The notes: generated by a model not told the origin, from the letters alone. A stretch of DNA of 38,973 bases from Candidatus Woesearchaeota archaeon (GCA_018221125.1 JAAOYC010000032.1:1-38973); one strand, 5' to 3'. Shown: positions 2,142-31,774, numbered from the stretch's first letter. Translations and numbers: made by a program.

Positions 2142-2184
2142 TGTAGAAAAATAAAGAATTTATTAGTTTAAAAACCTTCGTGAA

Positions 2185-17395: not shown

Positions 17396-17455
17396 GTCCC
17401 TTAGTCTGGACTAAAAGTCCCGAAGGTTTATAAAGGGAATAAATTGGATATTTCT

Positions 17456-18424: not shown

Positions 18425-18468
18425 TTATTTCTCAATAAACTTCTGCATCCTATTTACAAAGTCTTCTG
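18425..18468 (-). repeat. orphan 44-bp copy of the 3' end of the MNT-HEPN gene (direct repeat with 19468-19511)
   Basis: 42/44 identical; reads EDFVNRMQKFIEK* on the minus strand. Confidence 0.95.
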
Positions 18469-19467
18469 TGAGATAAACGCCCGTATAAAACAAGGGATTT
18501 AACAATTAGGGGCTAAGAAGCAAATCAAATATGCACTGGTCACTGGACATGTGCCCGCAAGATATATAAATTAACTTATCTTATTAGTAAGTTATGAGTA
18601 AAGTAGATAATAAATTAGCTGTATTTCAGGGAAAACATATTAGAAAAATTTGGCATAATAATGAATGGTATTTTTCAGTAATTGATATTATAGATGCTTT
18701 AGATGCAAGTACTAGACCCAGAAAATATTGGTCTGATCTAAAAAAAAAACTTACTGAAGAAGGTTTTGAGTTGTCCGCAAAAATCGGACAACTGAAATTA
18801 GTGGCTTCTGATGGCAAATCTTACCTTACGGATTGTGTAAGTACCAAAAACACGTTTAGGATAATTCAATCTATTCCCTCTAAAAAAGCAGAACCTTTCA
18901 AACAATGGCTCGCAGAAGTAGGTTATCAAAGAGTACAAGAGATAGAAAATCCAGAACTTGCTCAGAAGCGAATGAAATCATTATACAAGGCAAAAGGTTA
19001 TTCTGATGAATGGATTGAGAAACGAGTTAGAGGTATTACAATAAGAGATGAATTGACTGATGAATGGGGTAAAAGGGGTGTAAAAACAAACAGGGAATAC
19101 TCTATTTTAACTGCAGAGATTTCTAAAACAACATTTGGTTTAACTCCTGGGGAATATCAAAAATTAAAAGGTCTCAAACACCAGAATTTAAGAGACCATA
19201 TGAATGATTTAGAATTAATATTTAATATGCTTGGAGAAGCTTCTACTACGAAGATTGCCAGGAATAAAGATGCACTTGGATTTGATGAAAACAAGACTGC
19301 TGCAAAAGGAAGAGGAGTGGTGGCAGGAGTAGCGAGAAAAGAATTAGAAAAAAGAAGTGGTGAGAAAGTAGTTAGTTCTGAGAATTATTTAGAAGCACCT
19401 GAAAAAGTAAAGAAGCTGAAGAATAAAAGAAAATCTTGAAGCAAAATTAATATAGATTTTAGTTGAT
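18469..19467. mobile_element. ~1.0-kb inserted block bounded by 44-bp direct repeats
   Basis: Contains only the Bro-N gene and its promoter; flanked by 18425-18468 and 19468-19511. Confidence 0.7.
18594..19439 (+). CDS. Bro-N domain protein (phage antirepressor-like)
   Basis: IRKIWHNNEWYFSVIDII, RKYWSDLK, ASDGKSYLTD, IIQSIPSKKAEPFKQWLA, NLRDHMNDLELIF. Confidence 0.85.
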   Translation: MSKVDNKLAVFQGKHIRKIWHNNEWYFSVIDIIDALDASTRPRKYWSDLKKKLTEEGFELSAKIGQLKLVASDGKSYLTDCVSTKNTFRIIQSIPSKKAEPFKQWLAEVGYQRVQEIENPELAQKRMKSLYKAKGYSDEWIEKRVRGITIRDELTDEWGKRGVKTNREYSILTAEISKTTFGLTPGEYQKLKGLKHQNLRDHMNDLELIFNMLGEASTTKIARNKDALGFDENKTAAKGRGVVAGVARKELEKRSGEKVVSSENYLEAPEKVKKLKNKRKS

Positions 19468-20274
19468 TTATTTCTCTATAAACTTCTGCATCCTGTTTAC
19501 AAAGTCTTCTGCTTCTTTGTAGAGTTTTTCATATTCAGGGCCTTTTATCTCTTTTATTTCCCTGTGCGTGATGCCTTTCATAAGCTTATAGAATCTGTCC
19601 ATTGTTTTTGCATATTTTGCTTCCAGCTTGTGCTCTTTGACAAGTCTTTTCTCCAGCAAGTCTCCTGCGTATTGAGGAGAAGGCGGTGTTTCGCCAATAT
19701 GCATCAATGCTGCATGGGTTGCATCAATAACAGCCCAGTATAAATCTAAAGTTGCCTGGAGTATATGCCATTTTGAGTTTAATAATGTTCTTGGAGCCCG
19801 TCCAAAATAAACCCAGACAGACTCTTTTGTTGGCTTTATCCTTCCCTGGATAAGTAATGCCTGCATTGGGTCAAAGAATCCTGTATCCAGCAATGCAATT
19901 CCATCTCTTAGGATGTTTATTGCAACAGGGTCTCCTGCCCTTAGATATTCCCAGAAAGATGTTATTGTCATTGATGTTACATGCAGACGAGTTGATACTT
20001 TTCCCAGTGTTTTTTCAACTATCAACCTATACACTTCTATTACTTCTCTTGTCATCCTTATTGACAAGTCATCCACTACAATAAGAACATCAATGTCTCC
20101 TTTCTGGCCAACAGGTGTCTTTTTTCTTGCTGCTGAGCCGAACAGAACAACTGCTTTTAAGAAATCTCCGAATTCGTTTTTTAATCTTTTTGCAAAAGAC
20201 TTTGCAGCTGCAATGTCTTCATTCGGATATTTAACTATGTTAGGATGAGCGCCTTTTTTTAGTGTGAATTTCAA
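19468..20274 (-). CDS. minimal nucleotidyltransferase-HEPN fusion protein
   Basis: LFGSAAR...GDIDVLIVVDD Pol-beta motif plus a helical HEPN-like C-terminus (YWAVIDATHAAL); TTG start with GAGGGAG RBS. Confidence 0.85.
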   Translation of the reverse strand: MKFTLKKGAHPNIVKYPNEDIAAAKSFAKRLKNEFGDFLKAVVLFGSAARKKTPVGQKGDIDVLIVVDDLSIRMTREVIEVYRLIVEKTLGKVSTRLHVTSMTITSFWEYLRAGDPVAINILRDGIALLDTGFFDPMQALLIQGRIKPTKESVWVYFGRAPRTLLNSKWHILQATLDLYWAVIDATHAALMHIGETPPSPQYAGDLLEKRLVKEHKLEAKYAKTMDRFYKLMKGITHREIKEIKGPEYEKLYKEAEDFVNRMQKFIEK

Positions 20275-20338
20275 ATCTATCTCCCTCTTTTATTGAAATT
20301 AGCATTAAATAGTATTTAAAAGTTGTGTTTTAATAAGA

Positions 20339-20496
20339 TTTACACAATGTGCTTCTTTCAGAACCACAAGTATAAAACTTTAGGTAAGTTTTACACAATT
20401 TGCTTCTTTCAATAAAGTTCATATCACTTTGCTCATGAACATACTTCATTTCAAAGAAATGAAGAACCACAAGTATAAAACTTTAGGTAAGTTTTA
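20339..20496. repeat. intergenic A-B-A'-hairpins-B repeat
   Basis: 22-bp unit at 20339-20360 and 20390-20411 (1 mismatch); identical 34-bp unit at 20360-20393 and 20463-20496; hairpin CTTCATTTC-AAA-GAAATGAAG at 20444-20464. Confidence 0.9.
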
Positions 20497-20504
20497 TATA
20501 TAAG

Positions 20505-20522
20505 TGAGACAAATTGGTCATA
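20505..20522. promoter_or_regulatory. candidate operator TGAGAC-N6-GTCATA
   Basis: Lies just downstream of TTTTATATA; matches the sites at 33461 and 33536. Confidence 0.5.
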
Positions 20523-20540
20523 TGAACATCTTAAAAATAG

Positions 20541-20572
20541 AAAGGTTTAAATAATTGGACTATTTAGTCCAA
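20541..20572 (+). promoter_or_regulatory. BRE/TATA plus perfect palindrome (likely MNT autorepression operator)
   Basis: AAAGGTTTAAATA at 20541-20553, then TTGGACTA-TT-TAGTCCAA at 20555-20572. Confidence 0.65.
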
Positions 20573-20585
20573 ATAGATTGACCAA

Positions 20586-21116
20586 ATGATGCAACTAAAT
20601 GAACTATTAGGAAACAAGGAATTGTTCAGGATACTTAATTTCTTTATATCTAATCCTACAAAAGAATTTTCTCAGACAGCGGTGCGAAAGAAGATAGGAA
20701 TCTCTAAAACTACCTTGATTAAATGGATAGATAAGTTAGAAAAAAATGAGTTATTGAATCTGAGAAAAATAGGAACATCAAACTTGTATAAGCTAAGCAG
20801 GGAGAATGTTATCATCAAGCAGATAAAGATATTAAAGAGTCTACTGCAACTAGGGCCTTTGAAAAGTATTGATGCAGAAATTTATGTATATGGAAGTGCT
20901 GCAAGGGGGGAAGATGCAGAAGATAGTGATATTGATATCATGTTGATAGGAAAATTGAACAGGAAAGATGTAATTGAAGATATTGACAGGCTGGCTAAAA
21001 AAATAAAACGAAAGATAAGTTTCAAGATATTTGATAGGATAGAATGGTCAAAGATTGCAAGAGAAGATAATCCTTTTTATGAAAGAGTTGAAAAAGATAA
21101 GATAAGATTAGGATGA
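20586..21116 (+). CDS. wHTH-MNT nucleotidyltransferase (antitoxin-like)
   Basis: N-terminal wHTH; YGSAARGED..DSDIDI motif. Confidence 0.9.
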   Translation: MMQLNELLGNKELFRILNFFISNPTKEFSQTAVRKKIGISKTTLIKWIDKLEKNELLNLRKIGTSNLYKLSRENVIIKQIKILKSLLQLGPLKSIDAEIYVYGSAARGEDAEDSDIDIMLIGKLNRKDVIEDIDRLAKKIKRKISFKIFDRIEWSKIAREDNPFYERVEKDKIRLG

Positions 21117-21535
21117 ATATAAGAAAAGCGATTGAGGAGAGATTTTTAGAAAAAATTGAGATGGATAATGAATTGATTAGCAAGGAATTTGATGAGTCTG
21201 CCTATGATTTTGAAAAAGCACAAAAAGCTTTTGAAGAAGAAGATTACAAGTGGAGCATTGTGAAAAGTTATTATTCTGTATTCCATTCAGCAAAAGCAAT
21301 GTTGTTTGCATTAGGATTGAAAGAAAGAAAACATTTTGCAATAAGTATAGTATTAGAAGATCTTAACTTAAGAGGCAAATTAGAATCAATCTATGTAAAT
21401 GATTTTAAAGCAGCTAGTTCTGCAAGAGAAGATGCTGATTATCATTATTCTTATTCAAAGAAATCTGCACTGCATATTTTAGAGATTGCAGAAGAATTTA
21501 ATGATAAGATGGAAAAATTAGTAAAAGAGCTGTAA
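21113..21535 (+). CDS. HEPN domain protein (toxin-like partner of MNT)
   Basis: YYSVFHSAKAML and REDADYH motifs; ATGA overlap with the MNT gene. Confidence 0.88.
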   Translation: MNIRKAIEERFLEKIEMDNELISKEFDESAYDFEKAQKAFEEEDYKWSIVKSYYSVFHSAKAMLFALGLKERKHFAISIVLEDLNLRGKLESIYVNDFKAASSAREDADYHYSYSKKSALHILEIAEEFNDKMEKLVKEL

Positions 21536-21536
21536 A

Positions 21537-22184
21537 ATGGCTAAGGAAGATCTAGAGAAAGTATTGAAGAAGAAAGTTGAGCCTTTGCTAGAAGAATCAA
21601 TGCACAAGATTTTAGGTGTAACTATTTCTGAGTTTGGGAAAGATATCACTGACAGTATTGAGAAAAATCCTTTGATTGCCTATGATATTGATATTAGATT
21701 GGGTTTTAAGGCAGCAAAAAAACTGTTCAAGAAGCAGTTCTTGACAAGGATGCTGCAGACTAATTTTGGAAACATCTCTGCTGTTGCAAAAGTAACTGAA
21801 TTAGACAGGAGAAGCGTGCATAGAGCTGTAAAGGAATTGGGAATAGGAATAAAAGGGATTAGAAGAGATATGATTAAAGCTGATTATTATCGTCGAGAAG
21901 CTGTTGGAGAGATATTGAAAGGGACTTTGGACAGTTATAAGACAGTGATCAGGCCTGGAAAGCTAGAGAATATGTATGAGAATGTTGACAAGATAAGCTT
22001 TGATATTGTGAAAGAACTACCTGCAATAGAGATGAGCTGGGATGCTGCTGAGAAGATGTTTGAAATCCAGTATTTTGAGAAAGCACTTAAGGAGAATAAA
22101 GGCAATGTTTCCAGAACAGCGCGTAGAATAGGTTTAAGATATGAAACTTTGCATAGGAAGCTGAAGAAGTTAGGGTTGAAGTAG
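21537..22184 (+). CDS. tandem Fis-type (HTH_8) DNA-binding protein
   Basis: GNISAVAKVTELDRRSVHRAVKELG and GNVSRTARRIGLRYETLHRKLKKLG. Confidence 0.8.
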   Translation: MAKEDLEKVLKKKVEPLLEESMHKILGVTISEFGKDITDSIEKNPLIAYDIDIRLGFKAAKKLFKKQFLTRMLQTNFGNISAVAKVTELDRRSVHRAVKELGIGIKGIRRDMIKADYYRREAVGEILKGTLDSYKTVIRPGKLENMYENVDKISFDIVKELPAIEMSWDAAEKMFEIQYFEKALKENKGNVSRTARRIGLRYETLHRKLKKLGLK

Positions 22185-22185
22185 A

Positions 22186-22776
22186 TTAAGATGAATATTT
22201 TTGAATGAATTCTTCTACTTTGCTGTTGAAAAGATTTTCAGTTTCTTGTTCTTGTTGTTCTTGGATCTTCTTATAATGCTTTACAATAGGAATATGAAGT
22301 ACAGCAGGTATAATCCCTCCCACAATAGCTCCTAAAACTGAACCAGCTGGGGCAGCAACATAAGCAATATTCTGGCTTTCTGTTAAGTAGTCAGCTAAAG
22401 TTCCTGCACCGATTGCTCCTCCAATATAACCAGCTACTGCAAATGTTATGCATGATGCTATAGCACTATATCCTGGAAGAGTGGGTGTGTCTTCTATATT
22501 TTCTTTAAGCATATCCCTTAAGTTTGGCAATTCTGATAATTCTTTTCCCCAGTTAGGAATTGAAAGGGTTTTTTCACTAAGTGAAGCATTCCTTATTGAA
22601 TGATAATGAACTATTTGACAAAACTCTTCATAATAATCTTTACCAAGTCCTTTAAGTTCATTTGCAACATGAGATTTAAGATTTTCTAAATCTGATTCTT
22701 CTAAACCCCATGAATCGGAATTTAATCTAAGAGAATCCCAAGCCTCCATTGCTGGTGTAATTATTTCCATTAACAT
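22186..22776 (-). CDS. ORFan array gene 10; Gly/Ala-rich two-helix membrane protein
   Basis: Hydrophobic GxxxG-rich hairpin (AVAGYIGGAIGAG; AGSVLGAIVGGII). Confidence 0.8.
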   Translation of the reverse strand: MLMEIITPAMEAWDSLRLNSDSWGLEESDLENLKSHVANELKGLGKDYYEEFCQIVHYHSIRNASLSEKTLSIPNWGKELSELPNLRDMLKENIEDTPTLPGYSAIASCITFAVAGYIGGAIGAGTLADYLTESQNIAYVAAPAGSVLGAIVGGIIPAVLHIPIVKHYKKIQEQQEQETENLFNSKVEEFIQKYSS

Positions 22777-22779
22777 TTT

Positions 22780-23064
22780 TTATTCTCCTTCAGTCATATC
22801 TGCCAATAATATTGCAAGTCCTCCAACAACTTCATCTCTTTCTCTGAGTCTCTGTTCATATCCAAAACGGTTTTTAGGGTTAGGATTATTGAATTTAAAT
22901 GTAACATTTTGAAAATAGTTTCCACAATCCTCTGCTTTTACTTCTACGTAATTTCCATAAGATTCTAGCCGTCTACCACTGTGTAGTCTGTTTGGATGTT
23001 GTGTAAGATAGAATCTTACCTGATCCATCTGTTCCCAATTCAATCCATCTACTTTTATTTTCAT
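22780..23064 (-). CDS. ORFan array gene 9 (94 aa)
   Basis: Likely start ATG 23064; ends EGE* inside the junction motif. Confidence 0.75.
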   Translation of the reverse strand: MKIKVDGLNWEQMDQVRFYLTQHPNRLHSGRRLESYGNYVEVKAEDCGNYFQNVTFKFNNPNPKNRFGYEQRLRERDEVVGGLAILLADMTEGE

Positions 23065-23068
23065 CTTT

Positions 23069-23557
23069 TTATTTATCACTGCCTAAAATATCTTCAACCC
23101 CTTTTGATAAAGGTCTTTCAACAATACTTCTTTCTATCTCTTTTGCTTCCTCAGAAGTTATTGGTTCTGTCCAAAAATGTTCGCCTATACTGGCTTTCAT
23201 TTGCTTTACTACTTCATCAGCATATAATTTCCTTATTGCTCCACAAGGTTGATCTCTGCCCTCTTTGTATAATGCAACATATTCTTCTGTTATTTTTTCT
23301 TCGCCTCTTAATAATTTCAGCACTGCTGCAATCTTTTTAGGATTACGTTCACTTATCTTATCCATCAGTTCGCCTCTTTCTGACAGTTTTTTGCCTACTA
23401 ATAAATCTGCAATAGGTGGATTATGATAATATAGTGAAACAGGTTTTCCATCTTCATAGTGTACTATCACTGCAGTTGTCTCTTCTGGGATTAAACCAGT
23501 TTTGTCTGTGCCATCTATTGCATACGTTTCCTTAACTAATCTAGATTCTATTGTCAT
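23069..23557 (-). CDS. ORFan array gene 8 (162 aa)
   Basis: Start reassigned to ATG 23557, which follows TGAGGTTAAAA and removes a 34-bp overlap. Confidence 0.75.
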   Translation of the reverse strand: MTIESRLVKETYAIDGTDKTGLIPEETTAVIVHYEDGKPVSLYYHNPPIADLLVGKKLSERGELMDKISERNPKKIAAVLKLLRGEEKITEEYVALYKEGRDQPCGAIRKLYADEVVKQMKASIGEHFWTEPITSEEAKEIERSIVERPLSKGVEDILGSDK

Positions 23558-23565
23558 TTTTAACC

Positions 23566-24444
23566 TCATGGGTCTAACATAAACAATCTTTTTCTCCATT
23601 TAGGGTTTAGTAAAACATCTCCGTAATTTTCTACAAGTCTAACTGAATCTTCAAATAGATTATCTGCTTGGATAAGCAAAGATGGCGCATCATAAGATAA
23701 GCAAGGCCCATCAAATTCTTGCAGCATTTCAACTAATTCAGATTTAGCTTTGTCTATTCCTGGATTATCTGGTGCATTGATTTTTCCCAGACATACTGTA
23801 CCTACGCAAGATTGCGTTATAGGAGATTCTCCATTTATTACATGGAAACCTGAGTAAATATCAGGCAATGTGCTTTTTAGTTCATGTAATTTCTCATGCA
23901 TTTTTGCAAGTGTTTCTTTTCTGTCAATAACTAGAGCTTCACATTCTTCTACTCTGCTAAAATTCTCTTCTGGATTTTCCAAGACTCTTTTAAGAGTTCT
24001 ATAAAGACGTAATGGTGAAGGGCTATCCTCCAAATCTTCAATATTTGCTGCATCAATGATATAACCCACTCTTAAAAGTCTTGCAGCGCTGTTAGTGACT
24101 TCCCTATTACAAGCATCACCAAGACCAAAACGTCTTGCAATTCTTTCAGCAAGTTCCCTTTCCTCATCAGTAGCTCCTGGATAATTTTCAAGCAAATCTA
24201 AATAAGCGCTTAAAGGCTCTGTGTATTCTTTTTTTGATTTGCCTTCTCCATCTATAAGAACTTTCATATCACCGGGCTTTACTTTTAATTCTCCTGCATG
24301 TTCTTTGACTATTCTGTCTACTTTTCTGCCGATATCAACTACATCCTGGGATTTACAGCTAAAATATACACTGTCTACCCAAAACTGATCATTTGCATCT
24401 ATGCAATATACATTTGGTTTTACTACATCAAATTTTATTTCCAT
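23566..24444 (-). CDS. ORFan array gene 7 (292 aa)
   Basis: Long ORF preceded by AAAGGTGAATAAAAATG. Confidence 0.8.
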   Translation of the reverse strand: MEIKFDVVKPNVYCIDANDQFWVDSVYFSCKSQDVVDIGRKVDRIVKEHAGELKVKPGDMKVLIDGEGKSKKEYTEPLSAYLDLLENYPGATDEERELAERIARRFGLGDACNREVTNSAARLLRVGYIIDAANIEDLEDSPSPLRLYRTLKRVLENPEENFSRVEECEALVIDRKETLAKMHEKLHELKSTLPDIYSGFHVINGESPITQSCVGTVCLGKINAPDNPGIDKAKSELVEMLQEFDGPCLSYDAPSLLIQADNLFEDSVRLVENYGDVLLNPKWRKRLFMLDP

Positions 24445-24446
24445 TT

Positions 24447-24947
24447 TTATTCACCTTTATCAAGAAGAGCTCCATAATTAATCAACCAGGGATGCTCTTG
24501 TACAAATTCATTGAATAATTCCTTGAATCTTTCTCCTAATTCCTCGAATTGCTGGTAATATAATTCAGTGTGTCTTTTAATTGCAGGCGTGGTATGTTCT
24601 GGATTCTGGACTTTAATGCAGTTCACACCCATTTCTCTTGCTGATTCTATAATATACTGCTCAAAATCTACAAAAGACTTGTCTTCCTGAGATGGATATT
24701 CATATTCTTCGACTGCCATTGTTACATATTGACTTACGTGTGAGGCTACTGACACCTCTTTGCTGCCAATGTTTACTTTATTTCCCGCACCAATGATAAC
24801 TCCAATAAGTGCCTTAGCCTCATAGCCTACTCCCTTTTCAGGATCAAATCCATAAACAATAACACTTGGTCTTAATCCACCTTCGAATTCTACCTTATAT
24901 TCTAAACTAATTTCTTCTTTTCTTGGTTCTTGTGTTTCTTCTGTCAT
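24447..24947 (-). CDS. ORFan array gene 6 (166 aa)
   Basis: Starts MTEE, ends DKGE*. Confidence 0.8.
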   Translation of the reverse strand: MTEETQEPRKEEISLEYKVEFEGGLRPSVIVYGFDPEKGVGYEAKALIGVIIGAGNKVNIGSKEVSVASHVSQYVTMAVEEYEYPSQEDKSFVDFEQYIIESAREMGVNCIKVQNPEHTTPAIKRHTELYYQQFEELGERFKELFNEFVQEHPWLINYGALLDKGE

Positions 24948-24950
24948 TTT

Positions 24951-25373
24951 TTATTCACCTTTTGAGTCAGGTGCTTTAAGTTCAGCTTTTGCGTCAAGTA
25001 CTTGAAGTTCACCTGCATATTGTCTTACTCTATAATAACCATCTTTGAAATCGCAAAAGAATTCTTTTACCATATCTACATAATCATATCCTATAGTAAC
25101 TCCTAAACCAAATCCCACTCCTAGAGTCAATAAAGTTGCTAAATCACTGCTTTCAAATGCATAGTGGGTAAAAGTTGCGACACCACTTAAAACAGCAACA
25201 GGCAAAGCAACTCCGCCAACTGCTTTTAGAAAGCTCTTGTTTCTCTCGCTTTTAGCTTCACCTAAACAATCTTCTATTCCTTCTCTCTTCTTAAGATTAT
25301 CCAAAGCTTGATCTAACTTTTCTGTATCAATTTTTTCATTGAGGTTTGAATAGTCTCCTTCTGGACATTTCAT
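24951..25373 (-). CDS. ORFan array gene 5; two-helix membrane protein
   Basis: Hydrophobic hairpin with LGVGFGLGVTIG; ends KGE*. Confidence 0.8.
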   Translation of the reverse strand: MKCPEGDYSNLNEKIDTEKLDQALDNLKKREGIEDCLGEAKSERNKSFLKAVGGVALPVAVLSGVATFTHYAFESSDLATLLTLGVGFGLGVTIGYDYVDMVKEFFCDFKDGYYRVRQYAGELQVLDAKAELKAPDSKGE

Positions 25374-25843
25374 TCTTCATCACCTACTTTTGTTCTAGAA
25401 ACATAAAACTGCGCTGTTGCGTGCATAGAATATTCAACCTTTTTTGATTTTTCCCAAAGGTTGTTGAAAATATAATCATCTATAACATCTGGTTTTATAT
25501 TACCCATTATATCACTATCTTCTGTGCGTGCATCAAGATCTACTGGAGGTCTGACTTCTTGTTCAACAAAATTAACACTAAAATAAGGAACTCCTAATTC
25601 TTCTGCCATACGCATTGAAGAACGAAATATTTCTCCTGAGCCATATTCCTCCCTGATTCTTTTAGAGGGCATAGATACAATATAATTTCTTGGACCTAGA
25701 TAAGCAGAGCTGACCATTGTCAATTCATCTGGTTCAATCTTGTCATCAAGTGTTTTTGCAAAGTAGAAACGATCTAATTCAGCTAGTCTGAATACTCCGT
25801 CTTTCAAAACAATTAATTGTGGTTTTGGTTTTTCTTCTGTCAT
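25370..25843 (-). CDS. ORFan array gene 4 (157 aa)
   Basis: Starts MTEE; ATGA overlap with the next gene. Confidence 0.8.
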   Translation of the reverse strand: MTEEKPKPQLIVLKDGVFRLAELDRFYFAKTLDDKIEPDELTMVSSAYLGPRNYIVSMPSKRIREEYGSGEIFRSSMRMAEELGVPYFSVNFVEQEVRPPVDLDARTEDSDIMGNIKPDVIDDYIFNNLWEKSKKVEYSMHATAQFYVSRTKVGDEE

Positions 25844-25850
25844 TTTTTAT

Positions 25851-26477
25851 TCACCTGTATCCTAATCCTACTATTGGAAGTGCATATTGCACTATAACAT
25901 TTCCTTGTTCATCCAGAACCTGGAAACCTAGAATTGAAACTGATTTACCTAAAAATTCTTTCAGAGAAATTAAATTTAATTTTTCTTCTGGAAAGCGTGG
26001 TTCTAAAGATGATTCTAGTTGGTTAAGTTTTTCAAGTGGTGGATCCTTTATGAGTTCAAAATTATCGTATGGTTCATTTTCAGGGAGTAGATCTTTTTTT
26101 TCTATTTTTTCAAGCAGTGGAATTCTTTTTTCTATTTTATCTCTGTCAAAAAACTCTTCAAGAGAAGATAAATTTTCTTCTCGATAATTAGGTTGGTCTT
26201 TTATGACTAATTCAGGAAAGTGTTTAAGTCTTATATCATCATATAAATCAAGTGAATAAACAACTACTCTTGCTCCTAAACCAATTCTTAATGGAATATC
26301 CATTCTAAAAGGCTCTTCATGCCCTTCCAGTCTGAACTCCAGGCTTCCCTGATGTTTAACAGCATAGCTATCCATACCTAAGAATTTTTTAGCTTCTATC
26401 TGCTCATGAGATGACTCCTGTACAACTCTTCCTTCTGTATGAGGAATTTCCTTACCATCTAAATATAGTCTTTCCAT
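25851..26477 (-). CDS. ORFan array gene 3 (208 aa)
   Basis: Junction motif on both sides. Confidence 0.8.
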   Translation of the reverse strand: MERLYLDGKEIPHTEGRVVQESSHEQIEAKKFLGMDSYAVKHQGSLEFRLEGHEEPFRMDIPLRIGLGARVVVYSLDLYDDIRLKHFPELVIKDQPNYREENLSSLEEFFDRDKIEKRIPLLEKIEKKDLLPENEPYDNFELIKDPPLEKLNQLESSLEPRFPEEKLNLISLKEFLGKSVSILGFQVLDEQGNVIVQYALPIVGLGYR

Positions 26478-26480
26478 TTT

Positions 26481-26861
26481 TTATTCACCTTTATCAATAC
26501 CAATTCCATATATTTGAATAGAATCTCCATATGCTGTAACTTCTCTTCCTTTTAGAACAGACAAATCTTCTCCTAAAGTTCCTGTATCGCAAAGAAATGA
26601 AGCAATCCTCTCTAAGCCTGCGATTGGAAGACTTGCATGGGTACCAGATTCAGATATTTCTACATATAATCCAGATTGTTCAGAATCAATCTTTTGCCTG
26701 TCACATTTAATTCTTTCAACAACTCTGCCTGGGCCAATTTGGAAAAAATAAGCATCAGCAATTGTTGCTTCTTGTGATTTAGCATTAGCTAAATCTGCTT
26801 CAGTAATATCTCTATTTGATGGTGTGTATACCCTTTGATTGTTGAATTCGAATGTTTTCAT
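26481..26861 (-). CDS. ORFan array gene 2 (126 aa)
   Basis: Ends DKGE*. Confidence 0.8.
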   Translation of the reverse strand: MKTFEFNNQRVYTPSNRDITEADLANAKSQEATIADAYFFQIGPGRVVERIKCDRQKIDSEQSGLYVEISESGTHASLPIAGLERIASFLCDTGTLGEDLSVLKGREVTAYGDSIQIYGIGIDKGE

Positions 26862-26864
26862 TTT

Positions 26865-27236
26865 TTATCCCCATCGCTCTGATTTTTCACTGCTGATATC
26901 TGTCCTACCAGGATTCATTTTAGAATATCCAAAAGTAATTAGTATATCCTCTCTAGCTTTTCTTAACTGTTCTCTGTCTTCTCCTAATAGAACTAATGCA
27001 GTCAATACATCACCATCCTGAGCACCATGAACATACTGGGTTCCATCAAAATGATCTTTTCTAAATACAGCATCTCTAAATTCAACTTGGCAGCCATATT
27101 GTTCAGCTACAAAACTAAATGTTGGCCTTATTCCACTTCCTTTGAGATATCTATTATCTAATACTGCGTCTGTTGAAACGTGTCCATAAACTACTATTTC
27201 CTGTAATGTTTTTTCTTGAGTTTCATTTGTTTCCAT
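26865..27236 (-). CDS. ORFan array gene 1 (123 aa)
   Basis: Preceded by AAAGGTGATAAAAAATG and a promoter at 27299-27309. Confidence 0.8.
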   Translation of the reverse strand: METNETQEKTLQEIVVYGHVSTDAVLDNRYLKGSGIRPTFSFVAEQYGCQVEFRDAVFRKDHFDGTQYVHGAQDGDVLTALVLLGEDREQLRKAREDILITFGYSKMNPGRTDISSEKSERWG

Positions 27237-27277
27237 TTTTTATCACCTTTTGTTGTTATTTAATCACTTCTCAGTAA

Positions 27278-27386
27278 GTATATAGATTTCAAGCATATGT
27301 ATAAACCTTGTTATTATAGAATATAGATTAGTATATATGTATATACAAGCGAAAGGTTTAAATAGTTCTAGGATTTATCTATACAT
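27278..27386. promoter_or_regulatory. divergent promoters with repeated TATAGA/TATATAC boxes
   Basis: AAGGTTTATAC (minus, 27299-27309) and AAAGGTTTAAATA (plus, 27352-27364); TATAGA occurs several times. Confidence 0.6.
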
Positions 27387-28286
27387 ATGAAGAGAAAAAT
27401 CGTAAAACAAGGGGCAGCAACTATGACTATTAGCCTGCCTGCTCCATGGATTAAGAAATTCAGCTTAAAAGAAGGAGATGAGCTTAATATAGAGGAAGTT
27501 GGAAGCAGTATCAATATAACAACTGAGAAGGCTATGGGCAAGAGAAGGATAGAGCTGGATGCAAAAGAGCTTGGTTTTTTCACTAAAAATGAGCTAGGGC
27601 ATCTGTATTTTCTTGGTTTTGATGAAGTGATTATTCATTTTAAGAATAAAGAAGTGCTAAACCAGATAAAAAGCAGGCTGCCTGACTGCATTGGATATGA
27701 GATTATAGACCAGACTGAGGATAAGATAGTGATAAAAAGCATATCAAGCGAGTTAGAAACAGAATTTGACAATATCTTAAGAAAGGTATTTCTGATGCTA
27801 AAAGAGATGGGAGACAGTGTCTATGATGCATTAAAAAACAATGAATTTTCAAGATTAAAACAAATAAGAGATATGGAATCAATAAACAACAAATTTACTG
27901 CTTTTTTAACAAGATTGTTGTCTAAAAAAGGATATAAAAGGCCAGAAAGAAGCCTGCAGGCGTATGACATGATGCAAAACTTAGAAAGAACTGCTGATGT
28001 GTACAAGTATATATGTGATGATTTTATAAATAGGAAGAAAGCAGTTGATAAAGATGTTTTAGAATTATTAAACAAGATAAATGATTATTATAAACTGTTA
28101 TATGAAATCTTCTACAAGTTTGATCCTGAGAAAAAGACAGCATTATATGGAGACAGGCATGCATTGAAAGAGCAGGCTGATAAATTCCTGAAATCAGGCA
28201 AAGAAGTTGTTCTAAGCCATCATTTGATTGAGCTGTTAGAAAGGATATATAACACAGCTGGTTCTTATTTAGCTATGAGTATTTAA
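27387..28286 (+). CDS. archaeal AbrB-PhoU family regulator
   Basis: MKRKIVKQGAATMTISLP..WIKK..LKEGDEL AbrB domain; LYFLGFDEV, IGYEIIDQ and LERTAD PhoU-like helices. Confidence 0.88.
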   Translation: MKRKIVKQGAATMTISLPAPWIKKFSLKEGDELNIEEVGSSINITTEKAMGKRRIELDAKELGFFTKNELGHLYFLGFDEVIIHFKNKEVLNQIKSRLPDCIGYEIIDQTEDKIVIKSISSELETEFDNILRKVFLMLKEMGDSVYDALKNNEFSRLKQIRDMESINNKFTAFLTRLLSKKGYKRPERSLQAYDMMQNLERTADVYKYICDDFINRKKAVDKDVLELLNKINDYYKLLYEIFYKFDPEKKTALYGDRHALKEQADKFLKSGKEVVLSHHLIELLERIYNTAGSYLAMSI

Positions 28287-29860
28287 GCTGCTGGAACTAC
28301 AACAAGAGGTTCTTTATATTGCTTGTATGCTTTGTAGTTTTCTGCTGTTTGTTTTAGTATTTCAACAGGAGATTCTGCTGCAAAGTCTACTAAAGAAGTT
28401 CTAAGATTTGAAAGCATTCCTGCTTCAGCTGGATTTTGTGTTAAAGCACCGTCTATCATGCTGATTGCTTTTTCAAAATATAATTTGCATTTTTGCATCT
28501 GTTCATCTTTTACTTTTGGATGTTCTTTTGCAAATATGATTGCTCCTCCGCATTTGTCAATCTGGTCATTGATCAAGGAGTATCTTAATGCTGTAGATAA
28601 CCAAGTATTAGGAAGCAATAATGGAGTTTTATGTTCTGCTGAGTGTTCATTATGTTTGTCAACATACATGTGCAGCATATCTCTTGAAAATTCAGCTGGG
28701 TCCATGTCAGACCTGTCTCTTATTACAGAGTTTGTGAATCTTGCCAAGTCATCAAATTTCCTTCCTATTTTTGCTGCTTCATAATCTACAATAAAGCATT
28801 CTTCTTCTGACATTCTGCAGTTTCCTATGTGGAAATCTCCGTGTGTGAAATGTCTTGGGTCAAATGTTTTAGTAAAAGCAGAGTAAGCCTGCATTAAATC
28901 GTGAGCTTGAGGACTTACGATTACAGAATTACCTGATACAGGCGTTACAAATCTGCTTCTAAATTGAGTATTATAGTCAGTTAGTTCTAATGACAAGCCA
29001 TAATGTTCTCTTAATTCTGGCAAGTTCAATGAAGCCAGAACATGGATCTGTGATATCTTGTCTAAAGCTTTTCCGCATGCATCTAGAACTTCTGAGTCAG
29101 AACCTTGTTTTACAACATTTCTTAATTCCTGTTCACCAACATGATTAATAAGCAATCTTGTGTTTCTGTCATAGATTGTGTGTGTCTTGATTCCTAAATC
29201 ATTCAAGAATTGAGGAAGAATTTCTTCTTTTTCATCTGCATCTTTTGCAACAATATGTAATTGTTTTAATGCTCCATTTTCTTCATATTCAAATGTTAAG
29301 ATATCAACATTATGCTGGGACTGGTCTGCTAAGCTTACTATTCCTGAATATCTTATTCCAGGATGCTCTTGTGCAAGCATTGCTAATACTGGCTTGTATT
29401 CATCTGGCAAAGAACTTTCTGCAGTTTCTAATGAAACTGCTGCTTTTGTTTTAGGTGCTTCTGATTCTTTTTTAACAGAATAACCGGCTTTAGTATAATT
29501 ACCTAAAAGTTTTTCTAATGATTCAATGTTTTCTTTGTTATTAAATATGTATTCCTTCATTTCTTCTTTGTCATAGGATGTGTACTTCTCTTTAAATTTA
29601 GAATATTGTTCTATTTGAGGGATATAATACTGATTGAATTCTTCTGGATTTTCCTCTAATTGGTTATAAACAATAGAATCTAGATCTTTTATTTTATGAT
29701 TTAGACTATTATGGTTTATATTCTCTTTTTTGATTTTCTTAGAGTTTTCATTGAGAAAAGAACTGTAATAGATCTCAATATTTTTTAGAATACTAGGTTC
29801 ATAATTATTTTCCTTCTTGCTAAAACCATCTATAATTATTTCTTCTAGTGATTTATCCAT
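28283..29860 (-). CDS. APH/choline kinase-like phosphotransferase
   Basis: IVAK lysine, THGDFHIGN Brenner motif, IVDYE, DDLARF; long charged N-terminal extension. Confidence 0.85.
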   Translation of the reverse strand: MDKSLEEIIIDGFSKKENNYEPSILKNIEIYYSSFLNENSKKIKKENINHNSLNHKIKDLDSIVYNQLEENPEEFNQYYIPQIEQYSKFKEKYTSYDKEEMKEYIFNNKENIESLEKLLGNYTKAGYSVKKESEAPKTKAAVSLETAESSLPDEYKPVLAMLAQEHPGIRYSGIVSLADQSQHNVDILTFEYEENGALKQLHIVAKDADEKEEILPQFLNDLGIKTHTIYDRNTRLLINHVGEQELRNVVKQGSDSEVLDACGKALDKISQIHVLASLNLPELREHYGLSLELTDYNTQFRSRFVTPVSGNSVIVSPQAHDLMQAYSAFTKTFDPRHFTHGDFHIGNCRMSEEECFIVDYEAAKIGRKFDDLARFTNSVIRDRSDMDPAEFSRDMLHMYVDKHNEHSAEHKTPLLLPNTWLSTALRYSLINDQIDKCGGAIIFAKEHPKVKDEQMQKCKLYFEKAISMIDGALTQNPAEAGMLSNLRTSLVDFAAESPVEILKQTAENYKAYKQYKEPLVVVPAA

Positions 29861-29890
29861 AAGTCCTCATGAATTTAGAGGTATTACTCC

Positions 29891-29931
29891 TTTATAAACC
29901 TTTCGGTTTTTCACTACTAAAGGGTGGTTAC
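29891..29931 (-). promoter_or_regulatory. extended promoter motif shared with 35558-35597
   Basis: Minus strand reads GTAACCACCCTTTAGTAGTGAAAAACCGAAAGGTTTATAAA. Confidence 0.65.
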
Positions 29932-29935
29932 GTTA

Positions 29936-30727
29936 TTACTGCAGTGATCCTTCTAATATTTTTTCTAGTTTTCTAAAATTCCACCAGTTTCTTATATGTC
30001 CTTTAACATCTATTAAAGAATTAATAATTTCAATGTCAATATATGCCTGCATATCTAATTTTACATGAACTGTTCCTGTTCTGTAATAAGCTGAGGAGTC
30101 TCTTTTTAATAATTCTTCAACATCAATATCAAGTGTCATAGAAGGGTCAATCTTTTTTCCGTTTTTTATTGTTAAAGCAGTTGTTTCCCATGGAATCCAT
30201 TTACCGTTTGAATAAAGTTCAACCCATGCATGGCAAACCCATCCTTTTATATGTTTACTATAACTAAGACCTTCTGCAAGTCTAACAAGATTTCTCATCT
30301 TAGGGCATTCTGTTTTTGTAGATAATACAACAAACATTGAATAAGTCAGTGCTGCATATTCATCACAATCTCCTTCTCCTTTTTTAAAACTTCTTTCTAA
30401 ATCAAGCCCGTCTGTCATTTCATAATCCTGGATTGTTTCTGCAATCATATTAGCATATTTAAGCCATCCAATTGTTTTTTCTTCTAAAGAAGGGTTTTCA
30501 TTTTCATAAGGAAAATCATATTTTGAGAAATGAAAAAAAGATTCAGTTTTTTTATTGATTGTTATTGTAGGTTGTGATTGTTCTGCTTTTTTTTGGAGAT
30601 AAAAGTAATCAATGGGTATGCTTGAAGCAACATTTGCAATATAAAAAAGTCCTAAAAAACCTATTATGGATCTTACATATTTTCTAAATCTATTTTTTTT
30701 CTTAAGTTTCTGTTCTAAGTCATCCAT
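29936..30727 (-). CDS. membrane-anchored transglutaminase-like cysteine protease
   Basis: GDCDEYA, HAWVEL, WIPWET triad; N-terminal TM; start ATG 30727 lies 21 bp after TTTATAAA. Confidence 0.85.
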   Translation of the reverse strand: MDDLEQKLKKKNRFRKYVRSIIGFLGLFYIANVASSIPIDYFYLQKKAEQSQPTITINKKTESFFHFSKYDFPYENENPSLEEKTIGWLKYANMIAETIQDYEMTDGLDLERSFKKGEGDCDEYAALTYSMFVVLSTKTECPKMRNLVRLAEGLSYSKHIKGWVCHAWVELYSNGKWIPWETTALTIKNGKKIDPSMTLDIDVEELLKRDSSAYYRTGTVHVKLDMQAYIDIEIINSLIDVKGHIRNWWNFRKLEKILEGSLQ

Positions 30728-30767
30728 GCTTAAACACATATTAAATGATTTATAAAGATTGGCGTAT

Positions 30768-30812
30768 TATGAAACATTGCATAGAAAGCTGAAGAAATTA
30801 GGGTTGAAATAG
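30768..30812 (+). repeat. orphan 45-bp copy of the 3' end of the Fis-like gene (direct repeat with 22140-22184)
   Basis: 41/45 identical; reads YETLHRKLKKLGLK*. Confidence 0.95.
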
Positions 30813-31571: not shown

Positions 31572-31602
31572 AATAAAATAATGTTTTAGTAATTTATAAA
31601 CC

Positions 31603-31740
31603 TTAGGGATTTAAATGTCTAGTAGAAAATAATTTCATTACTGAAAGATATGTGCCTACATCCTTAGAAAGTTTTTGCAGAGCATCAGCAATTCCTTCTG
31701 CCACAAAACCATCTATTGATTCTGTACTGAAAACTCCCAT
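31603..31740 (-). pseudogene. 45-aa ORF or truncated gene
   Basis: MGVFSTESIDGFVAEG... with TTTATAAA about 22 bp upstream; its stop overlaps the next gene's BRE/TATA. Confidence 0.45.
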
Positions 31741-31774
31741 AAAGATAGTAAATTTAAGGTTTTTTATAAAGCTT

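What the first reader, a model, noticed from the sequence alone, without database searches (positions are those of the whole stretch)
18425..30812. Recurrent cargo insertion at gene 3' ends leaving 44-45 bp synonymous-only scars: candidate integrase-free gene capture mechanism
Seen: two unrelated genes within 12 kb each have their last 44-45 nt, ending exactly at the stop codon, duplicated beyond a cargo block. All 6 mismatches are synonymous third-codon changes (about (1/3)^6 by chance). In both cases the adjacent cargo gene is convergent with the host gene, the far cargo end carries a promoter facing the host gene, and the orphan copy abuts the stop codon of the next convergent gene with a 0 bp gap. 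Established: integrative elements often restore a target gene's 3' end, but normally encode an integrase; none is present here. Inference: both copies were functional alleles from different strains. The near-identical scar length suggests a dedicated, trans-acting or homology-anchored mechanism that adds cargo at stop codons.
Basis: partly seen in the sequence, partly recalled or inferred. Interest (0 to 1): 0.85.

Follow-up and report, generated by a model that had tools for sequence, protein, structure and literature searches.

The report
Recombination scars beside inserted gene blocks
Two conserved genes of a tiny-genome archaeon each had extra genes spliced in just before their stop codon, stranding the old 44-45-base gene end behind the insert; this looks like ordinary recombination between related lineages, not a new gene-capture machine.

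Summary
The last 44 nt of gene B (19468..20274, -) and the last 45 nt of gene C (21537..22184, +) recur as orphans at 18425-18468 and 30768-30812, beyond 1.0 kb and 8.6 kb of cargo. All 6 mismatches are synonymous.

It recurs. There is a third case in this genome (57 nt) and others in relatives (68, 72, 73 nt). Intergenic or promoter duplications of 19-70 nt also flank single selfish genes. Over six gene-end pairs, 38 of 48 mismatches are synonymous against 9.5 expected, so the copies are alleles.

In one relative the working gene end is foreign to the rest of its gene, and the foreign tract starts about 20 nt upstream of the repeat. Relatives show empty sites. Part of the 8.6-kb cargo is the usual neighbour of C in other genera. 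No cargo encodes a recombinase. The repeats share no core, and the repeat edge in gene C differs between genomes.

Best reading: homologous exchange in the conserved gene plus one illegitimate joint. The orphan is the resident gene end, still attached to its resident neighbour. The fixed-length, dedicated-mechanism idea is not supported.

Earlier notes of this scan describe similar scars in other CPR/DPANN genomes. Interest is moderate.

The parts
17444..18424 (+). Gene A, 326 aa, an accessory gene. It is the resident neighbour whose stop codon abuts orphan 1.
   Evidence: ORF. No family hit in Pfam, NCBIfam or PADLOC. Found in 2 of 41 genomes including G000.
18425..18468 (-). Orphan copy of the last 44 nt of gene B, including its stop codon.
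   Evidence: 42 of 44 nt identical, both mismatches synonymous. The frame is broken upstream.
18469..18593 (+). Cargo 1 leader and promoter. It holds the exact 16-mer CACTGGTCACTGGACA at 18534-18549 and a TATA-like box at 18562-18571.
   Evidence: 20 exact copies in G000 and none of the reversed control.
18594..19439 (+). Cargo 1 gene: Bro-N domain protein of the PADLOC family PDC-S13 (phage-defence candidate).
   Evidence: Pfam Bro-N, E 3.2e-11. PDC-S13, E 1e-116, full length. Present in 93 of 201 genomes of the order, often in several copies and often broken. Up to 64% identical to genes on bacterial plasmids.
19440..19467 (.). 28-nt spacer, possibly a decayed remnant of an A-like 3' end. 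Support is weak.
   Evidence: the best local block, AATATAGAT-TTTA, is reached by 29 of 5000 random windows and 150 of 5000 shuffles. Further colinear blocks, TTTAGT and TGA, were seen by eye.
19468..20274 (-). Gene B, a conserved nucleotidyltransferase-domain protein. Its last 44 nt (19468-19511) are the working repeat copy.
   Evidence: Pfam NTP_transf_2. Present in 41 of 41 genomes.
20586..21535 (+). MNT-like nucleotidyltransferase (20586..21116) and HEPN (21113..21535) pair directly upstream of C. The pair is variably present in relatives.
   Evidence: (PDC-M05A, E 1.1e-25). Present in G006, G003 and G008. Not seen in the G001, G002 and G009 loci.
21537..22184 (+). Gene C, a Fis-type HTH_8 regulator. 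Its last 45 nt (22140-22184) are the working repeat copy.
   Evidence: Pfam HTH_8, E 2.3e-13. Present in 21 of 41 genomes.
22186..27236 (-). Cargo 2, part 1: ten tightly packed ORFs (c1-c10) with no family assignment, convergent with C.
   Evidence: c4 was found in 1 of 201 order genomes, G000 only, and has 2 homologues in the 5.8-billion-protein set. c8 is remotely like the gene next to C in G002 and G007 (hhalign probability 73%, E 3.1e-5).
27387..28286 (+). Cargo 2: AbrB/MazE-PhoU regulator.
   Evidence: A 63% identical copy lies 4.7 kb downstream of C in G007 (G007 is unpublished).
28283..29860 (-). Cargo 2: APH-like kinase-fold protein.
   Evidence: Pfam APH, E 1.2e-4, just under the cut-off. 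A 40% identical copy lies at a contig edge in G007.
29936..30739 (-). Cargo 2: transglutaminase-core protein TG1, a paralogue of D.
   Evidence: 31% identical to D over 211 aa, E 3.7e-30.
30740..30767 (.). 28 nt between the TG1 start and the orphan. It contains the novel joint and a TATA-like box (seen by eye).
30768..30812 (+). Orphan copy of the last 45 nt of gene C, including its stop codon.
   Evidence: 41 of 45 nt identical, all 4 mismatches synonymous.
30813..33400 (-). D (30813..31571), a 76-aa ORF and a 541-aa protein. This is the older accessory block between the orphan and the next conserved gene (33695..34543).
   Evidence: D is found in 2 of 41 genomes including G000. G001 and G005 have C followed directly by the homologue of 33695..34543 (both unpublished).

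Best explanation
These are scars of recombination at two hot spots for gene gain, behind the conserved genes B and C. The organism is a tiny-genome archaeon; an earlier scan note calls it Woesearchaeota, and I did not test that.

Proposed mechanism:
1. DNA came in from a related lineage. It carried that lineage's version of the conserved gene's end plus whatever lay downstream of it.
2. One side was joined by homologous exchange inside the conserved gene.
3. The other side was joined by a single illegitimate, or very short-homology, joint 44-73 nt upstream of the resident stop codon.
4. This could be one-ended double-strand-break repair followed by end joining, homology-facilitated illegitimate recombination, or a single crossover of a circularised fragment.

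Outcome: the incoming DNA supplies the working gene end. The resident end survives as an orphan, still attached to its resident downstream neighbour. Repeated events stack cargo behind the conserved gene.

No element-encoded or dedicated recombinase is required.

Shown: the anatomy, the recurrence, the allelic nature of the copies, empty sites in relatives, one mosaic gene, and the absence of a recombinase in the cargo.

Inferred: the order of events, the kind of joint and the enzymes.
For: 1. Recurrence with variable length.
- A peptide-level scan of G000 finds exactly 3 orphan gene ends: C11 twice and C10.
- Relatives add G009 at 72 nt, G150 at 68 nt and G182 at 73 nt.
- 6 of 19 Bro-N loci from other genomes have flanking repeats of 19-73 nt, each matching its own local site.

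2. Allelic copies.
- 38 of 48 mismatches over six pairs are synonymous, against 9.5 expected. 0 of 20,000 random trials reach 38.

3. Incoming gene end.
- Up to position -108, G009's gene C follows its congener G006 at 104 informative sites and G001 at 24.
- In the last 108 nt it follows G001 at 16 sites and G006 at 5.
- The switch lies near -95, upstream of the repeat edge at -72.

4. Empty sites.
- G001 has the lipoprotein gene convergent with B, and C followed directly by the homologue of 33695..34543. G005 likewise for C.
- G006 and G005 have the C10 target gene next to its conserved neighbour.

5. Cargo 2 is partly the normal neighbourhood of C elsewhere.
- AbrB-PhoU at 63% identity and the APH-like gene at 40% in G007.
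- c8 is remotely homologous to the gene beside C in G002 and G007.

6. No recombinase in the cargo.
- In the 5 family relatives that had any PF00589 hit, the hits lie on contigs other than the one carrying B and C. G002 had no hit at all.

7. No common core among the repeats.
- The best pairing of unrelated targets has P = 0.02-0.04 before correction for 15 comparisons.

8. Short exact runs.
- The longest exact runs inside the repeats, counted by eye, are 17 nt (pair 1), 11 nt (pair 2) and 14 nt (G009).
- These are below the 25-35 bp minimal processing segment quoted for bacterial RecA (PMC6382021, passages read).
- A crossover inside the repeat is therefore unlikely, and exchange further upstream fits better.
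Against: - No donor genome, excision circle or sibling strain with the exact pre-insertion junctions (A against B, or C against D) was found. No sequencing run was listed and two metagenome scans found nothing.
- The illegitimate joint is inferred. Microhomology cannot be checked without the donor.
- All 3 G000 orphans abut the neighbour's stop codon with 0 bp. Only 14 of 157 crudely called convergent ORF pairs do so. The model does not predict this.
- Lengths of 44 and 45 nt here, plus a 44-nt case in another genome reported by an unchecked earlier scan note, form a small cluster.
- A complete genome of the same order, G035, has no clear scar, so the process is not universal.
- The repeats around the LAGLIDADG gene on contig C39 are identical apart from one 1-nt indel (69 of 70). 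A duplicative insertion in place fits them as well as anything.
- MEPS values come from bacteria, not archaea.
Confidence: 0.55

Rival explanations
1. The inserts are integrative elements or cassettes moved by a tyrosine recombinase. The recombinase either acts in trans or was lost from the element. The repeats are attL and attR, and the element-borne att carries a replacement gene end, as in e14 and phage 21 at icd.
For: - Direct repeats that restore a gene's 3' end are the classic signature of such elements. For e14, a 163-bp duplicated icd end is supplied by the prophage (PMC6379469, passages read).
- G000 has two PF00589 genes. One is a 406-aa integrase beside tRNA-Lys at a contig edge.
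- Low identity between the copies (75% in G009) is easier for a site-specific enzyme than for homologous recombination within the repeat.
- Repeats of 44-73 nt are in the usual att range (recalled, not tested).
Against: - No integrase in any cargo examined.
- Recombinase genes of 5 relatives lie on other contigs.
- The same cargo family, Bro-N, carries a different, locally matching repeat in each genome.
- Gene C has different repeat edges in G000 and G009.
- No shared core among the repeats.
- The incoming tract in G009 extends beyond the repeat.
- Part of cargo 2 is syntenic with C in other genera.
Confidence: 0.2
2. The process is nuclease-driven and homing-like. A site-specific endonuclease, for example one of the free-standing LAGLIDADG enzymes, cuts susceptible alleles of conserved genes near their 3' end. 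Repair from a resistant allele with synonymous changes drags the neighbouring cargo in. Where the downstream regions differ, the second end is joined without homology, which leaves the orphan.
For: - G000 has 6 free-standing LAGLIDADG_3 genes.
- One of them, on contig C39, is itself flanked by a 70-nt repeat that includes 14 nt of a tRNA 3' end.
- These genes and the Bro-N genes share an exact 16-mer promoter element with MCM, Hef, XPD-like, Cas4-like and Dam genes.
- The synonymous-only differences and the conversion tract upstream of the joint in G009 fit marker co-conversion.
Against: - Neither cargo 1, cargo 2 nor the G009 cargo encodes a recognisable nuclease.
- The Bro-N protein model was too poor to use (pLDDT 49.7), and its C-terminal half is predicted helical.
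- No mismatch lies in the first 8 nt (pair 2) or 16 nt (pair 1) beside the joint, where a target half-site would be.
- No target site is known.
Confidence: 0.12
3. The insertion was duplicative and happened in place, for example by a replication template switch or by staggered breaks filled in. This gives identical repeats at first. Later allele replacement by ordinary recombination produces the synonymous differences.
For: - Repeats are identical or nearly so around the C39 LAGLIDADG gene (69 of 70) and in L053 (22 of 22).
- In pair 1 the spacer after the Bro-N stop may be a decayed copy of A's 3' end. If so, about 85 nt spanning the A|B junction was duplicated in one step (weak).
- Promoter duplications (L046, L053, C39) show that the process is not tied to stop codons.
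Against: - It needs a second event to explain the allelic differences.
- In G009 the switch of parentage lies close to the repeat edge, which later, unrelated recombination would not predict.
- The outer repeat edge coincides with the stop codon in 5 of 6 gene-end cases, which a random stagger would not give.
Confidence: 0.1
4. The structure is an assembly chimera of two co-occurring strains, joined at shared sequence.
For: The genome is a 68-contig, 78.6%-complete metagenome bin, and the two copies look like alleles of closely related strains.
Against: - The orphan-to-cargo joints are novel sequences that must exist in reads.
- The repeats are imperfect, with exact runs of at most 17 nt, which is poor ground for a graph mis-join.
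- The same anatomy occurs in independent assemblies: G009, G150 and G182.
Confidence: 0.03

Closest known systems
Insertion-duplication by homologous plus illegitimate recombination: homology-facilitated illegitimate recombination (de Vries and Wackernagel 2002, as cited in PMC6382021), one-ended break repair, or Campbell-type single crossover of a circular fragment
   Same: One junction lies in a homologous anchor gene and the other is a novel joint. No element-encoded enzyme is involved. Cargo of any kind is carried. The anchor segment is duplicated.
   Different: - The process was described in transformable bacteria in the laboratory. Here it is inferred from natural archaeal genomes.
- The duplication of the anchor's last 44-73 nt, with an allelic replacement end, recurs at hot spots.
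- The joint type and the enzymes were not tested.
e14 / phage 21 integration into the 3' end of icd in E. coli (PMC6379469, passages read; Hill et al. 1989 as cited there)
   Same: The incoming DNA supplies a replacement 3' end of a protein gene. The displaced resident end remains as a pseudo-fragment beyond the insert. The differences are conservative or synonymous.
   Different: Those elements encode their own integrase and use one fixed att. Here the cargo has no integrase, the repeat edges vary, and the same cargo family has a different repeat at each site.
CIMEs (cis-mobilizable elements: integrase-less remnants flanked by attL and attR). Recalled, and named in an earlier scan note.
   Same: Integrase-less cargo bracketed by direct repeats at a gene end. 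Stacking at one site.
   Different: A CIME needs a related integrase-bearing element that uses the same att. None was found at these sites in the relatives examined.
PeSL-mediated modular shuffling in T4-type phages (named in earlier scan note e1-3822008; paper not read here)
   Same: Small gene cassettes with their own promoter are shuffled into hyperplastic regions. A repeated promoter element (the 16-mer) flanks many selfish genes, and it forms part of the repeat around the C39 LAGLIDADG gene.
   Different: The two window repeats are gene ends, not the shared promoter element. The host is a cellular genome, not a phage.
Free-standing homing-endonuclease genes that insert at gene 3' ends and carry a duplicated replacement end, known in fungal mitochondria (for example Allomyces atp6; recalled, not read here)
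   Same: A replacement gene end arrives with a selfish gene, and the displaced original end lies downstream.
   Different: The cargo in the window has no recognisable nuclease. Only the C39 case carries a LAGLIDADG gene, and its repeat is a tRNA end plus a promoter.

Membership tests
Integrase-encoding integrative element (e14/phage 21 or archaeal provirus type) | Integrase or recombinase gene inside the element | tested here: not met
   The 20 ORFs from 17444 to 31571 gave no hit in Pfam. The subsets scanned in NCBIfam and PHROGs gave none. The only PF00589 genes of G000 lie on contigs C2 and C33.
Integrase-encoding integrative element (e14/phage 21 or archaeal provirus type) | Direct repeats (attL/attR) overlapping the target gene's 3' end and restoring it | tested here: met
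Integrase-encoding integrative element (e14/phage 21 or archaeal provirus type) | Fixed att edge and core at independent insertions in the same target | tested here: not met
   In gene C the repeat edge is at -45 in G000 and at -72 in G009. No shared core among the repeats.
Integrase-encoding integrative element (e14/phage 21 or archaeal provirus type) | Excision to a circle or regeneration of an empty site | not testable with these tools
   No sequencing run was listed.
CIME (integrase-less, cis-mobilizable remnant) | A related integrase-bearing element uses the same att in relatives | tested here: not met
   The islands behind B and C in G001, G002, G005, G006, G007 and G009 show no integrase-like ORF by eye. 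These island ORFs were not scanned against Pfam, apart from the G009 HEPN-like ORF. PF00589 hits of relatives lie on other contigs. Contigs are fragmented, so this test is weak.
Integron gene cassette | IntI with attI next to the array; attC at each cassette end | tested here: not met
   There is no PF00589 gene on the window contig. The attC fold was not tested. The repeats are copies of the host gene end, which integrons do not produce.
Transposon or insertion sequence | Transposase, terminal inverted repeats, and a target-site duplication of fixed short length | tested here: not met
   No transposase. The Cas12f1-like_TNB (TnpB/Cas12f zinc-ribbon) family gave only a sub-threshold hit elsewhere in the genome. 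No inverted repeat at the cargo ends among the 25 pairs listed. Repeat length is 19-73 nt and variable.
Free-standing homing endonuclease gene | A nuclease domain (LAGLIDADG, GIY-YIG, HNH, PD-(D/E)XK) in the inserted gene | tested here: not met
   Cargo 1 has only a Bro-N domain. Its model has pLDDT 49.7 and is unusable. The PDB profile search gave 0 hits. The feature is met only for the separate C39 insertion (LAGLIDADG_3, E 2.8e-11).
Homology-anchored insertion-duplication (HFIR, one-ended repair or Campbell-type) | An allelic (foreign) tract in the anchor gene ending at the insert | tested here: met
   G009 gene C: 104 sites follow G006 and 24 follow G001 up to -108, against 5 and 16 in the last 108 nt. 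Synonymous bias of 38 of 48. Not testable for the two window genes, because no close sibling is available.
Homology-anchored insertion-duplication (HFIR, one-ended repair or Campbell-type) | Empty site in relatives | tested here: met
   G001 and G005 (both unpublished) for B and C. G006 and G005 for the C10 target. These are other species, not sibling strains.
Homology-anchored insertion-duplication (HFIR, one-ended repair or Campbell-type) | Microhomology at the illegitimate joint; dependence on RadA | not testable with these tools
   The donor sequence is unknown and the organism is uncultivated.
PADLOC PDC-S13 (phage-defence candidate; cargo 1 gene) | Full-length match to the family profile | tested here: met
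   E 1e-116, residues 5-278 against profile positions 4-279 of 286. The defence function itself is untested.

The most novel reading that the evidence does not exclude
Tiny-genome archaea (and, going by unchecked scan notes, CPR bacteria) may have a semi-dedicated route of gene gain aimed at the last 45-75 nt of conserved genes.

In this reading, breaks made near stop codons are repaired from cleavage-resistant alleles of related lineages. The breaks might come from the free-standing LAGLIDADG nucleases, which share a 16-mer promoter regulon with MCM, Hef, XPD-like and Cas4-like genes. Repair drags in whatever lies downstream and stacks it behind the conserved gene.

The cluster of 44-45-nt scars and the 0-bp junctions in 3 of 3 cases would then reflect a real constraint of that machinery.
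Probability: 0.12. Interest if true: 0.75.

Novelty: new member of a known kind. Interest (0 to 1): 0.36.

Why it matters
Tiny-genome archaea carry few classical mobile elements, yet their gene content varies strongly between relatives. These scars show where and how genes are added.

- Genes are added behind conserved anchor genes.
- The added DNA comes from related lineages and brings its own gene end.
- The scars give a readable order of acquisitions: the orphan separates older cargo from newer cargo.
- They also give a handle on donors, through the allele of the working gene end.

The cargo includes a widely travelling defence-candidate gene, PDC-S13. It is up to 64% identical to genes on bacterial plasmids.

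If the process proves general in DPANN and CPR organisms, it would explain gene gain without integrases in these lineages. As it stands, this is a clean and recurrent example of known recombination outcomes.

Tried and rejected
- Sequencing runs for 17000-23000: none was listed. Reads, empty-site variants and circle junctions could therefore not be examined.
- Metagenome scans with proteins A and D found no relative.
- A viral-contig scan with the c4 alignment found nothing.
- The genome-contig scan found one Pacearchaeota locus that carries c4 alone, which was uninformative.
- The Bro-N structure prediction gave pLDDT 49.7. I did not send it to a fold search, because low-confidence models give meaningless matches. 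The PDB profile search gave 0 hits. NCBIfam gave no hit, so my recalled DinD likeness stays untested.
- A shared core between the B and C repeats was rejected: P = 0.027 before correction for 15 comparisons.
- A split SSV-type integrase across the att site was rejected by reading the ORFs at both cargo 2 ends.
- The tRNA-like stretch in the C10 cargo gave no hit with ARAGORN or with Rfam at gathering score, so I make no claim for it.
- The A-remnant in the 28-nt spacer has only weak support.
- Census of a complete relative, G035 (774 kb): no clear orphan among 12 candidate rows. One pair, at 135216 and 135632, lies beside a masked stretch and could not be judged.
- Paper searches found no description of such scars in DPANN archaea. 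That is four searches of an open-access library, and it is no proof of absence.
- Supplementary files of papers were not consulted.

Full report
WHAT IS THERE

The window is a whole 38,973-bp contig (C11) of a 964,591-bp, 68-contig, 78.6%-complete genome. An earlier scan note calls the organism a Woesearchaeota archaeon; I did not test the taxonomy.

- 18425-18468 against 19468-19511, 44 nt with 2 mismatches.
- 22140-22184 against 30768-30812, 45 nt with 4 mismatches.

Each pair ends at the stop codon of a long ORF. The two copies of each pair encode the same peptide. All six mismatches are third-position and synonymous. Similarity stops abruptly at both repeat edges.

The working copies belong to two genes:
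- Gene B, 19468..20274 (-), a nucleotidyltransferase-domain protein present in 41 of 41 genomes searched.
- Gene C, 21537..22184 (+), a Fis-type HTH regulator present in 21 of 41.

The orphans abut the stop codons of genes A and D with no base between them.

Cargo 1 is a single gene for a Bro-N protein with its own promoter. Cargo 2 is 8.6 kb and contains:
- ten packed ORFs without any family assignment,
- an AbrB-PhoU regulator,
- an APH-like kinase-fold protein,
- a transglutaminase-core protein.

No recombinase was found in either cargo.

IT IS RECURRENT AND NOT OF FIXED LENGTH

A self-BLAST of the genome and a peptide-level scan for 'gene end followed by stop, outside a long frame' find exactly three orphan gene ends in G000. 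These are the two in the window and one on contig C10.

In the C10 case:
- About 57 nt of the end of a 134-aa regulator gene lie stranded 780 bp away.
- The orphan again directly abuts the stop codon of a convergent accessory gene.
- A second, 27-nt partial copy lies 125 nt further on.

In relatives:
- G009 has its own orphan of gene C, about 72 nt long, behind a nucleotidyltransferase/HEPN-like gene pair.
- Of 19 loci from other genomes that carry the Bro-N cargo gene, 6 have flanking direct repeats.
- Two of these are 68 and 73 nt of the 3' end of a neighbouring gene.
- One is a decayed 19-nt version at the same target as the 73-nt case.
- Three are 21, 22 and 33 nt of intergenic or promoter sequence.

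In G000 a LAGLIDADG gene on contig C39 is bracketed by a 70-nt repeat. That repeat consists of 14 nt of a tRNA 3' end plus a promoter.

A complete genome of the same order, G035, has no clear case.

Lengths therefore run from 19 to 73 nt, and 44 against 45 is most simply a coincidence. I record that as a small unexplained cluster.

THE COPIES ARE ALLELES, AND THE WORKING COPY IS THE INCOMING ONE

Over six gene-end pairs, 38 of 48 mismatches are synonymous, against 9.5 expected for random substitutions. None of 20,000 trials reached 38.

In G009 the body of gene C follows its congener G006. In the last 108 nt it follows the G001 type instead:

| Region of G009 gene C | Sites following G006 | Sites following G001 |
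|---|---|---|
| up to -108 | 104 | 24 |
| last 108 nt | 5 | 16 |

The change of parentage lies near -95, about 20 nt upstream of the repeat edge. The orphan is closest to the G006 allele, at 59 of 72 nt. So the insert arrived together with a foreign gene end, and the orphan is the displaced resident end.

In G000 the two copies of each pair are closer to each other (42/44 and 41/45) than to any relative (at most 40). This points to closely related donors.

THE SITES ARE HOT SPOTS, AND PART OF THE CARGO IS NOT FOREIGN

G001 and G005 are both unpublished; these statements rest on them.
- G001 has the lipoprotein gene convergent with B.
- G001 and G005 both have C followed directly by the homologue of 33695..34543.
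- Everything between those genes in G000 is therefore accessory.

Genes A and D, which touch the orphans, are themselves rare. Each is found in 2 of 41 genomes including G000.

The slot behind C varies between genomes:
- no genes in G001 and G005,
- three genes in G002,
- a toxin-antitoxin-like pair plus two genes in G009,
- about nine in G007,
- about seventeen in G000.

Cargo 2 overlaps this variable neighbourhood:
- G007 (unpublished) has a 63% identical AbrB-PhoU gene 4.7 kb behind C and a 40% identical APH-like gene at a contig edge.
- c8 is remotely homologous to the gene next to C in G002 and G007 (hhalign probability 73%, E 3.1e-5).
- G007 and G009 share a nucleotidyltransferase/HEPN-like pair right after C.

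Cargo 2 thus looks like another lineage's version of the region behind C. It does not look like a discrete mobile element.

The Bro-N gene is different in kind. It is a highly mobile accessory gene:
- It is a full-length match to PADLOC PDC-S13 (E 1e-116).
- It is present in 93 of 201 genomes of the order, with up to 13 matches per genome, many of them with internal stops.
- It is up to 64% identical to genes on bacterial plasmids.

MECHANISM

The anatomy is: conserved gene with incoming end | cargo | novel joint | resident end | resident neighbour.

This is what results if the following happens:
1. A break or an invading strand in the 3' part of the conserved gene is processed with homologous DNA of a related lineage.
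2. Synthesis or exchange runs through that lineage's gene end into its different downstream region.
3. The far end is then joined without homology to the resident DNA, 44-73 nt before the resident stop.

The result follows equally from one-ended break repair with end joining, from homology-facilitated illegitimate recombination, or from a single crossover of a circularised fragment. I cannot separate these three.

The longest exact runs inside the repeats, counted by eye, are 17, 11 and 14 nt. These are below the 25-35 bp quoted for bacterial RecA (PMC6382021, passages read). Together with the G009 tract starting upstream of the repeat, this speaks for exchange upstream of the repeat rather than inside it.

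RIVALS

A recombinase acting in trans remains possible.
- G000 has a Xer-like gene and a 406-aa integrase beside tRNA-Lys.
- Against it: the same cargo family has a different local repeat in every genome. Gene C has two different repeat edges. The repeats share no core. Recombinase genes of relatives lie on other contigs.

A homing-like, nuclease-triggered version is the boldest reading that the data allow.
- The genome has six free-standing LAGLIDADG genes.
- No nuclease is in the window's cargo.

Duplicative insertion in place fits the near-identical repeats on C39. It may also fit pair 1, if the 28-nt spacer is a decayed copy of A's end (weak).

Assembly chimerism is unlikely. The joints are novel sequence, and the pattern recurs in independent assemblies.

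UNEXPLAINED

All three G000 orphans touch the neighbour's stop codon with 0 bp. Only 14 of 157 crudely called convergent ORF pairs do so.

One possibility is selection. At such tight junctions only joints inside the conserved gene spare the neighbour, so scars are seen preferentially there. This was not tested.

COMPARISON AND VERDICT

The closest known cases are insertion-duplication by homologous plus illegitimate recombination, and the e14/phage 21 replacement of the icd end (PMC6379469, passages read). The cases here differ from the latter in lacking an integrase and a fixed att.

Earlier notes of this scan (unchecked AI notes) describe similar orphan gene ends of 25-223 nt in other CPR and DPANN genomes, and a variable cassette stack behind tfb in this same genome. 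The phenomenon has therefore been found before by this scan on other DNA.

I file it as a new member of a known kind, of moderate interest.

Noticed in passing
window 18534-18549, and 19 other places in G000 (for example C35 3292, C47 8111, C61 39850 and 39897, C28 456-471, C14 10802, C39 2036 and 2929): An exact 16-mer, CACTGGTCACTGGACA, lies about 10-14 nt upstream of a TATA-like box in 20 promoters. It drives MCM, a Hef-like helicase-nuclease, an XPD-like helicase, a Cas4-like nuclease, a Dam-type methylase, a nucleotidyltransferase, six free-standing LAGLIDADG genes, two Bro-N genes and a stretch upstream of tRNA-Phe. The exact 16-mer occurs in 11 of 41 related genomes (5-14 copies in five family members, 1-5 in five genomes of other families). 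The reversed control occurs 0 times. It looks like a replication and repair regulon that selfish genes have joined. The binding factor is unknown.
   Followed up: partly
G000 contig C39 2015-2977 (locus L067): A free-standing LAGLIDADG_3 gene (2085..2885, -) is bracketed by a 70-nt repeat that is identical apart from one 1-nt indel. The repeat consists of 14 nt of an intron-containing tRNA's 3' end (tRNA at 2964-3128, -) plus the 16-mer promoter. The insertion duplicated the promoter that now drives both the endonuclease gene and the downstream nucleotidyltransferase gene.
   Followed up: partly
window 18594-19439: The Bro-N / PDC-S13 gene is 64% identical over 96% of its length to a gene on a plasmid of the amoeba endosymbiont Candidatus Paracaedimonas acanthamoebae. 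It is 44-55% identical to genes on Haliscomenobacter, Arcobacter, Chlorohelix, Parabacteroides and Phocaeicola plasmids. This suggests cross-domain transfer of a defence-candidate gene.
   Followed up: partly
window 20334-20496: The B-to-nucleotidyltransferase intergenic region holds a 34-nt exact repeat (20360-20393 and 20463-20496) and a 27-nt 93% repeat (20334-20360 and 20385-20411). Their role is unknown.
   Followed up: no
G000 contig C10 28893-28989 (locus L072): Between the 57-nt orphan and a second 27-nt partial copy of the same gene end lie two copies of the perfect palindrome ATGTGCACAT. A 16-mer promoter follows, driving a stretch that looks tRNA-like by eye but was not recognised by ARAGORN or Rfam.
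   Followed up: partly
G000 contig C33 481-1879 (locus L121): A 406-aa tyrosine integrase (PF00589, E 1e-20) with a C-terminal zinc-ribbon-like motif lies beside tRNA-Lys at a contig edge. It is probably an integrated element cut off by the assembly.
   Followed up: no
window 29936-33400: There are two, possibly three, neighbouring transglutaminase-core proteins: TG1, D and perhaps the 541-aa protein. TG1 and D are 31% identical and sit on either side of the orphan. They are fast-evolving, probably surface proteins.
   Followed up: partly
window 9718-10983: This ORF looks like a form III RuBisCO large subunit by eye. It was not tested.
   Followed up: no
G035 (complete relative) about 135216-135632: An identical C-terminal peptide of at least 27 aa occurs twice, 416 nt apart, beside a masked stretch. 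It could be another orphan gene end or a repeat, and it could not be judged.
   Followed up: no
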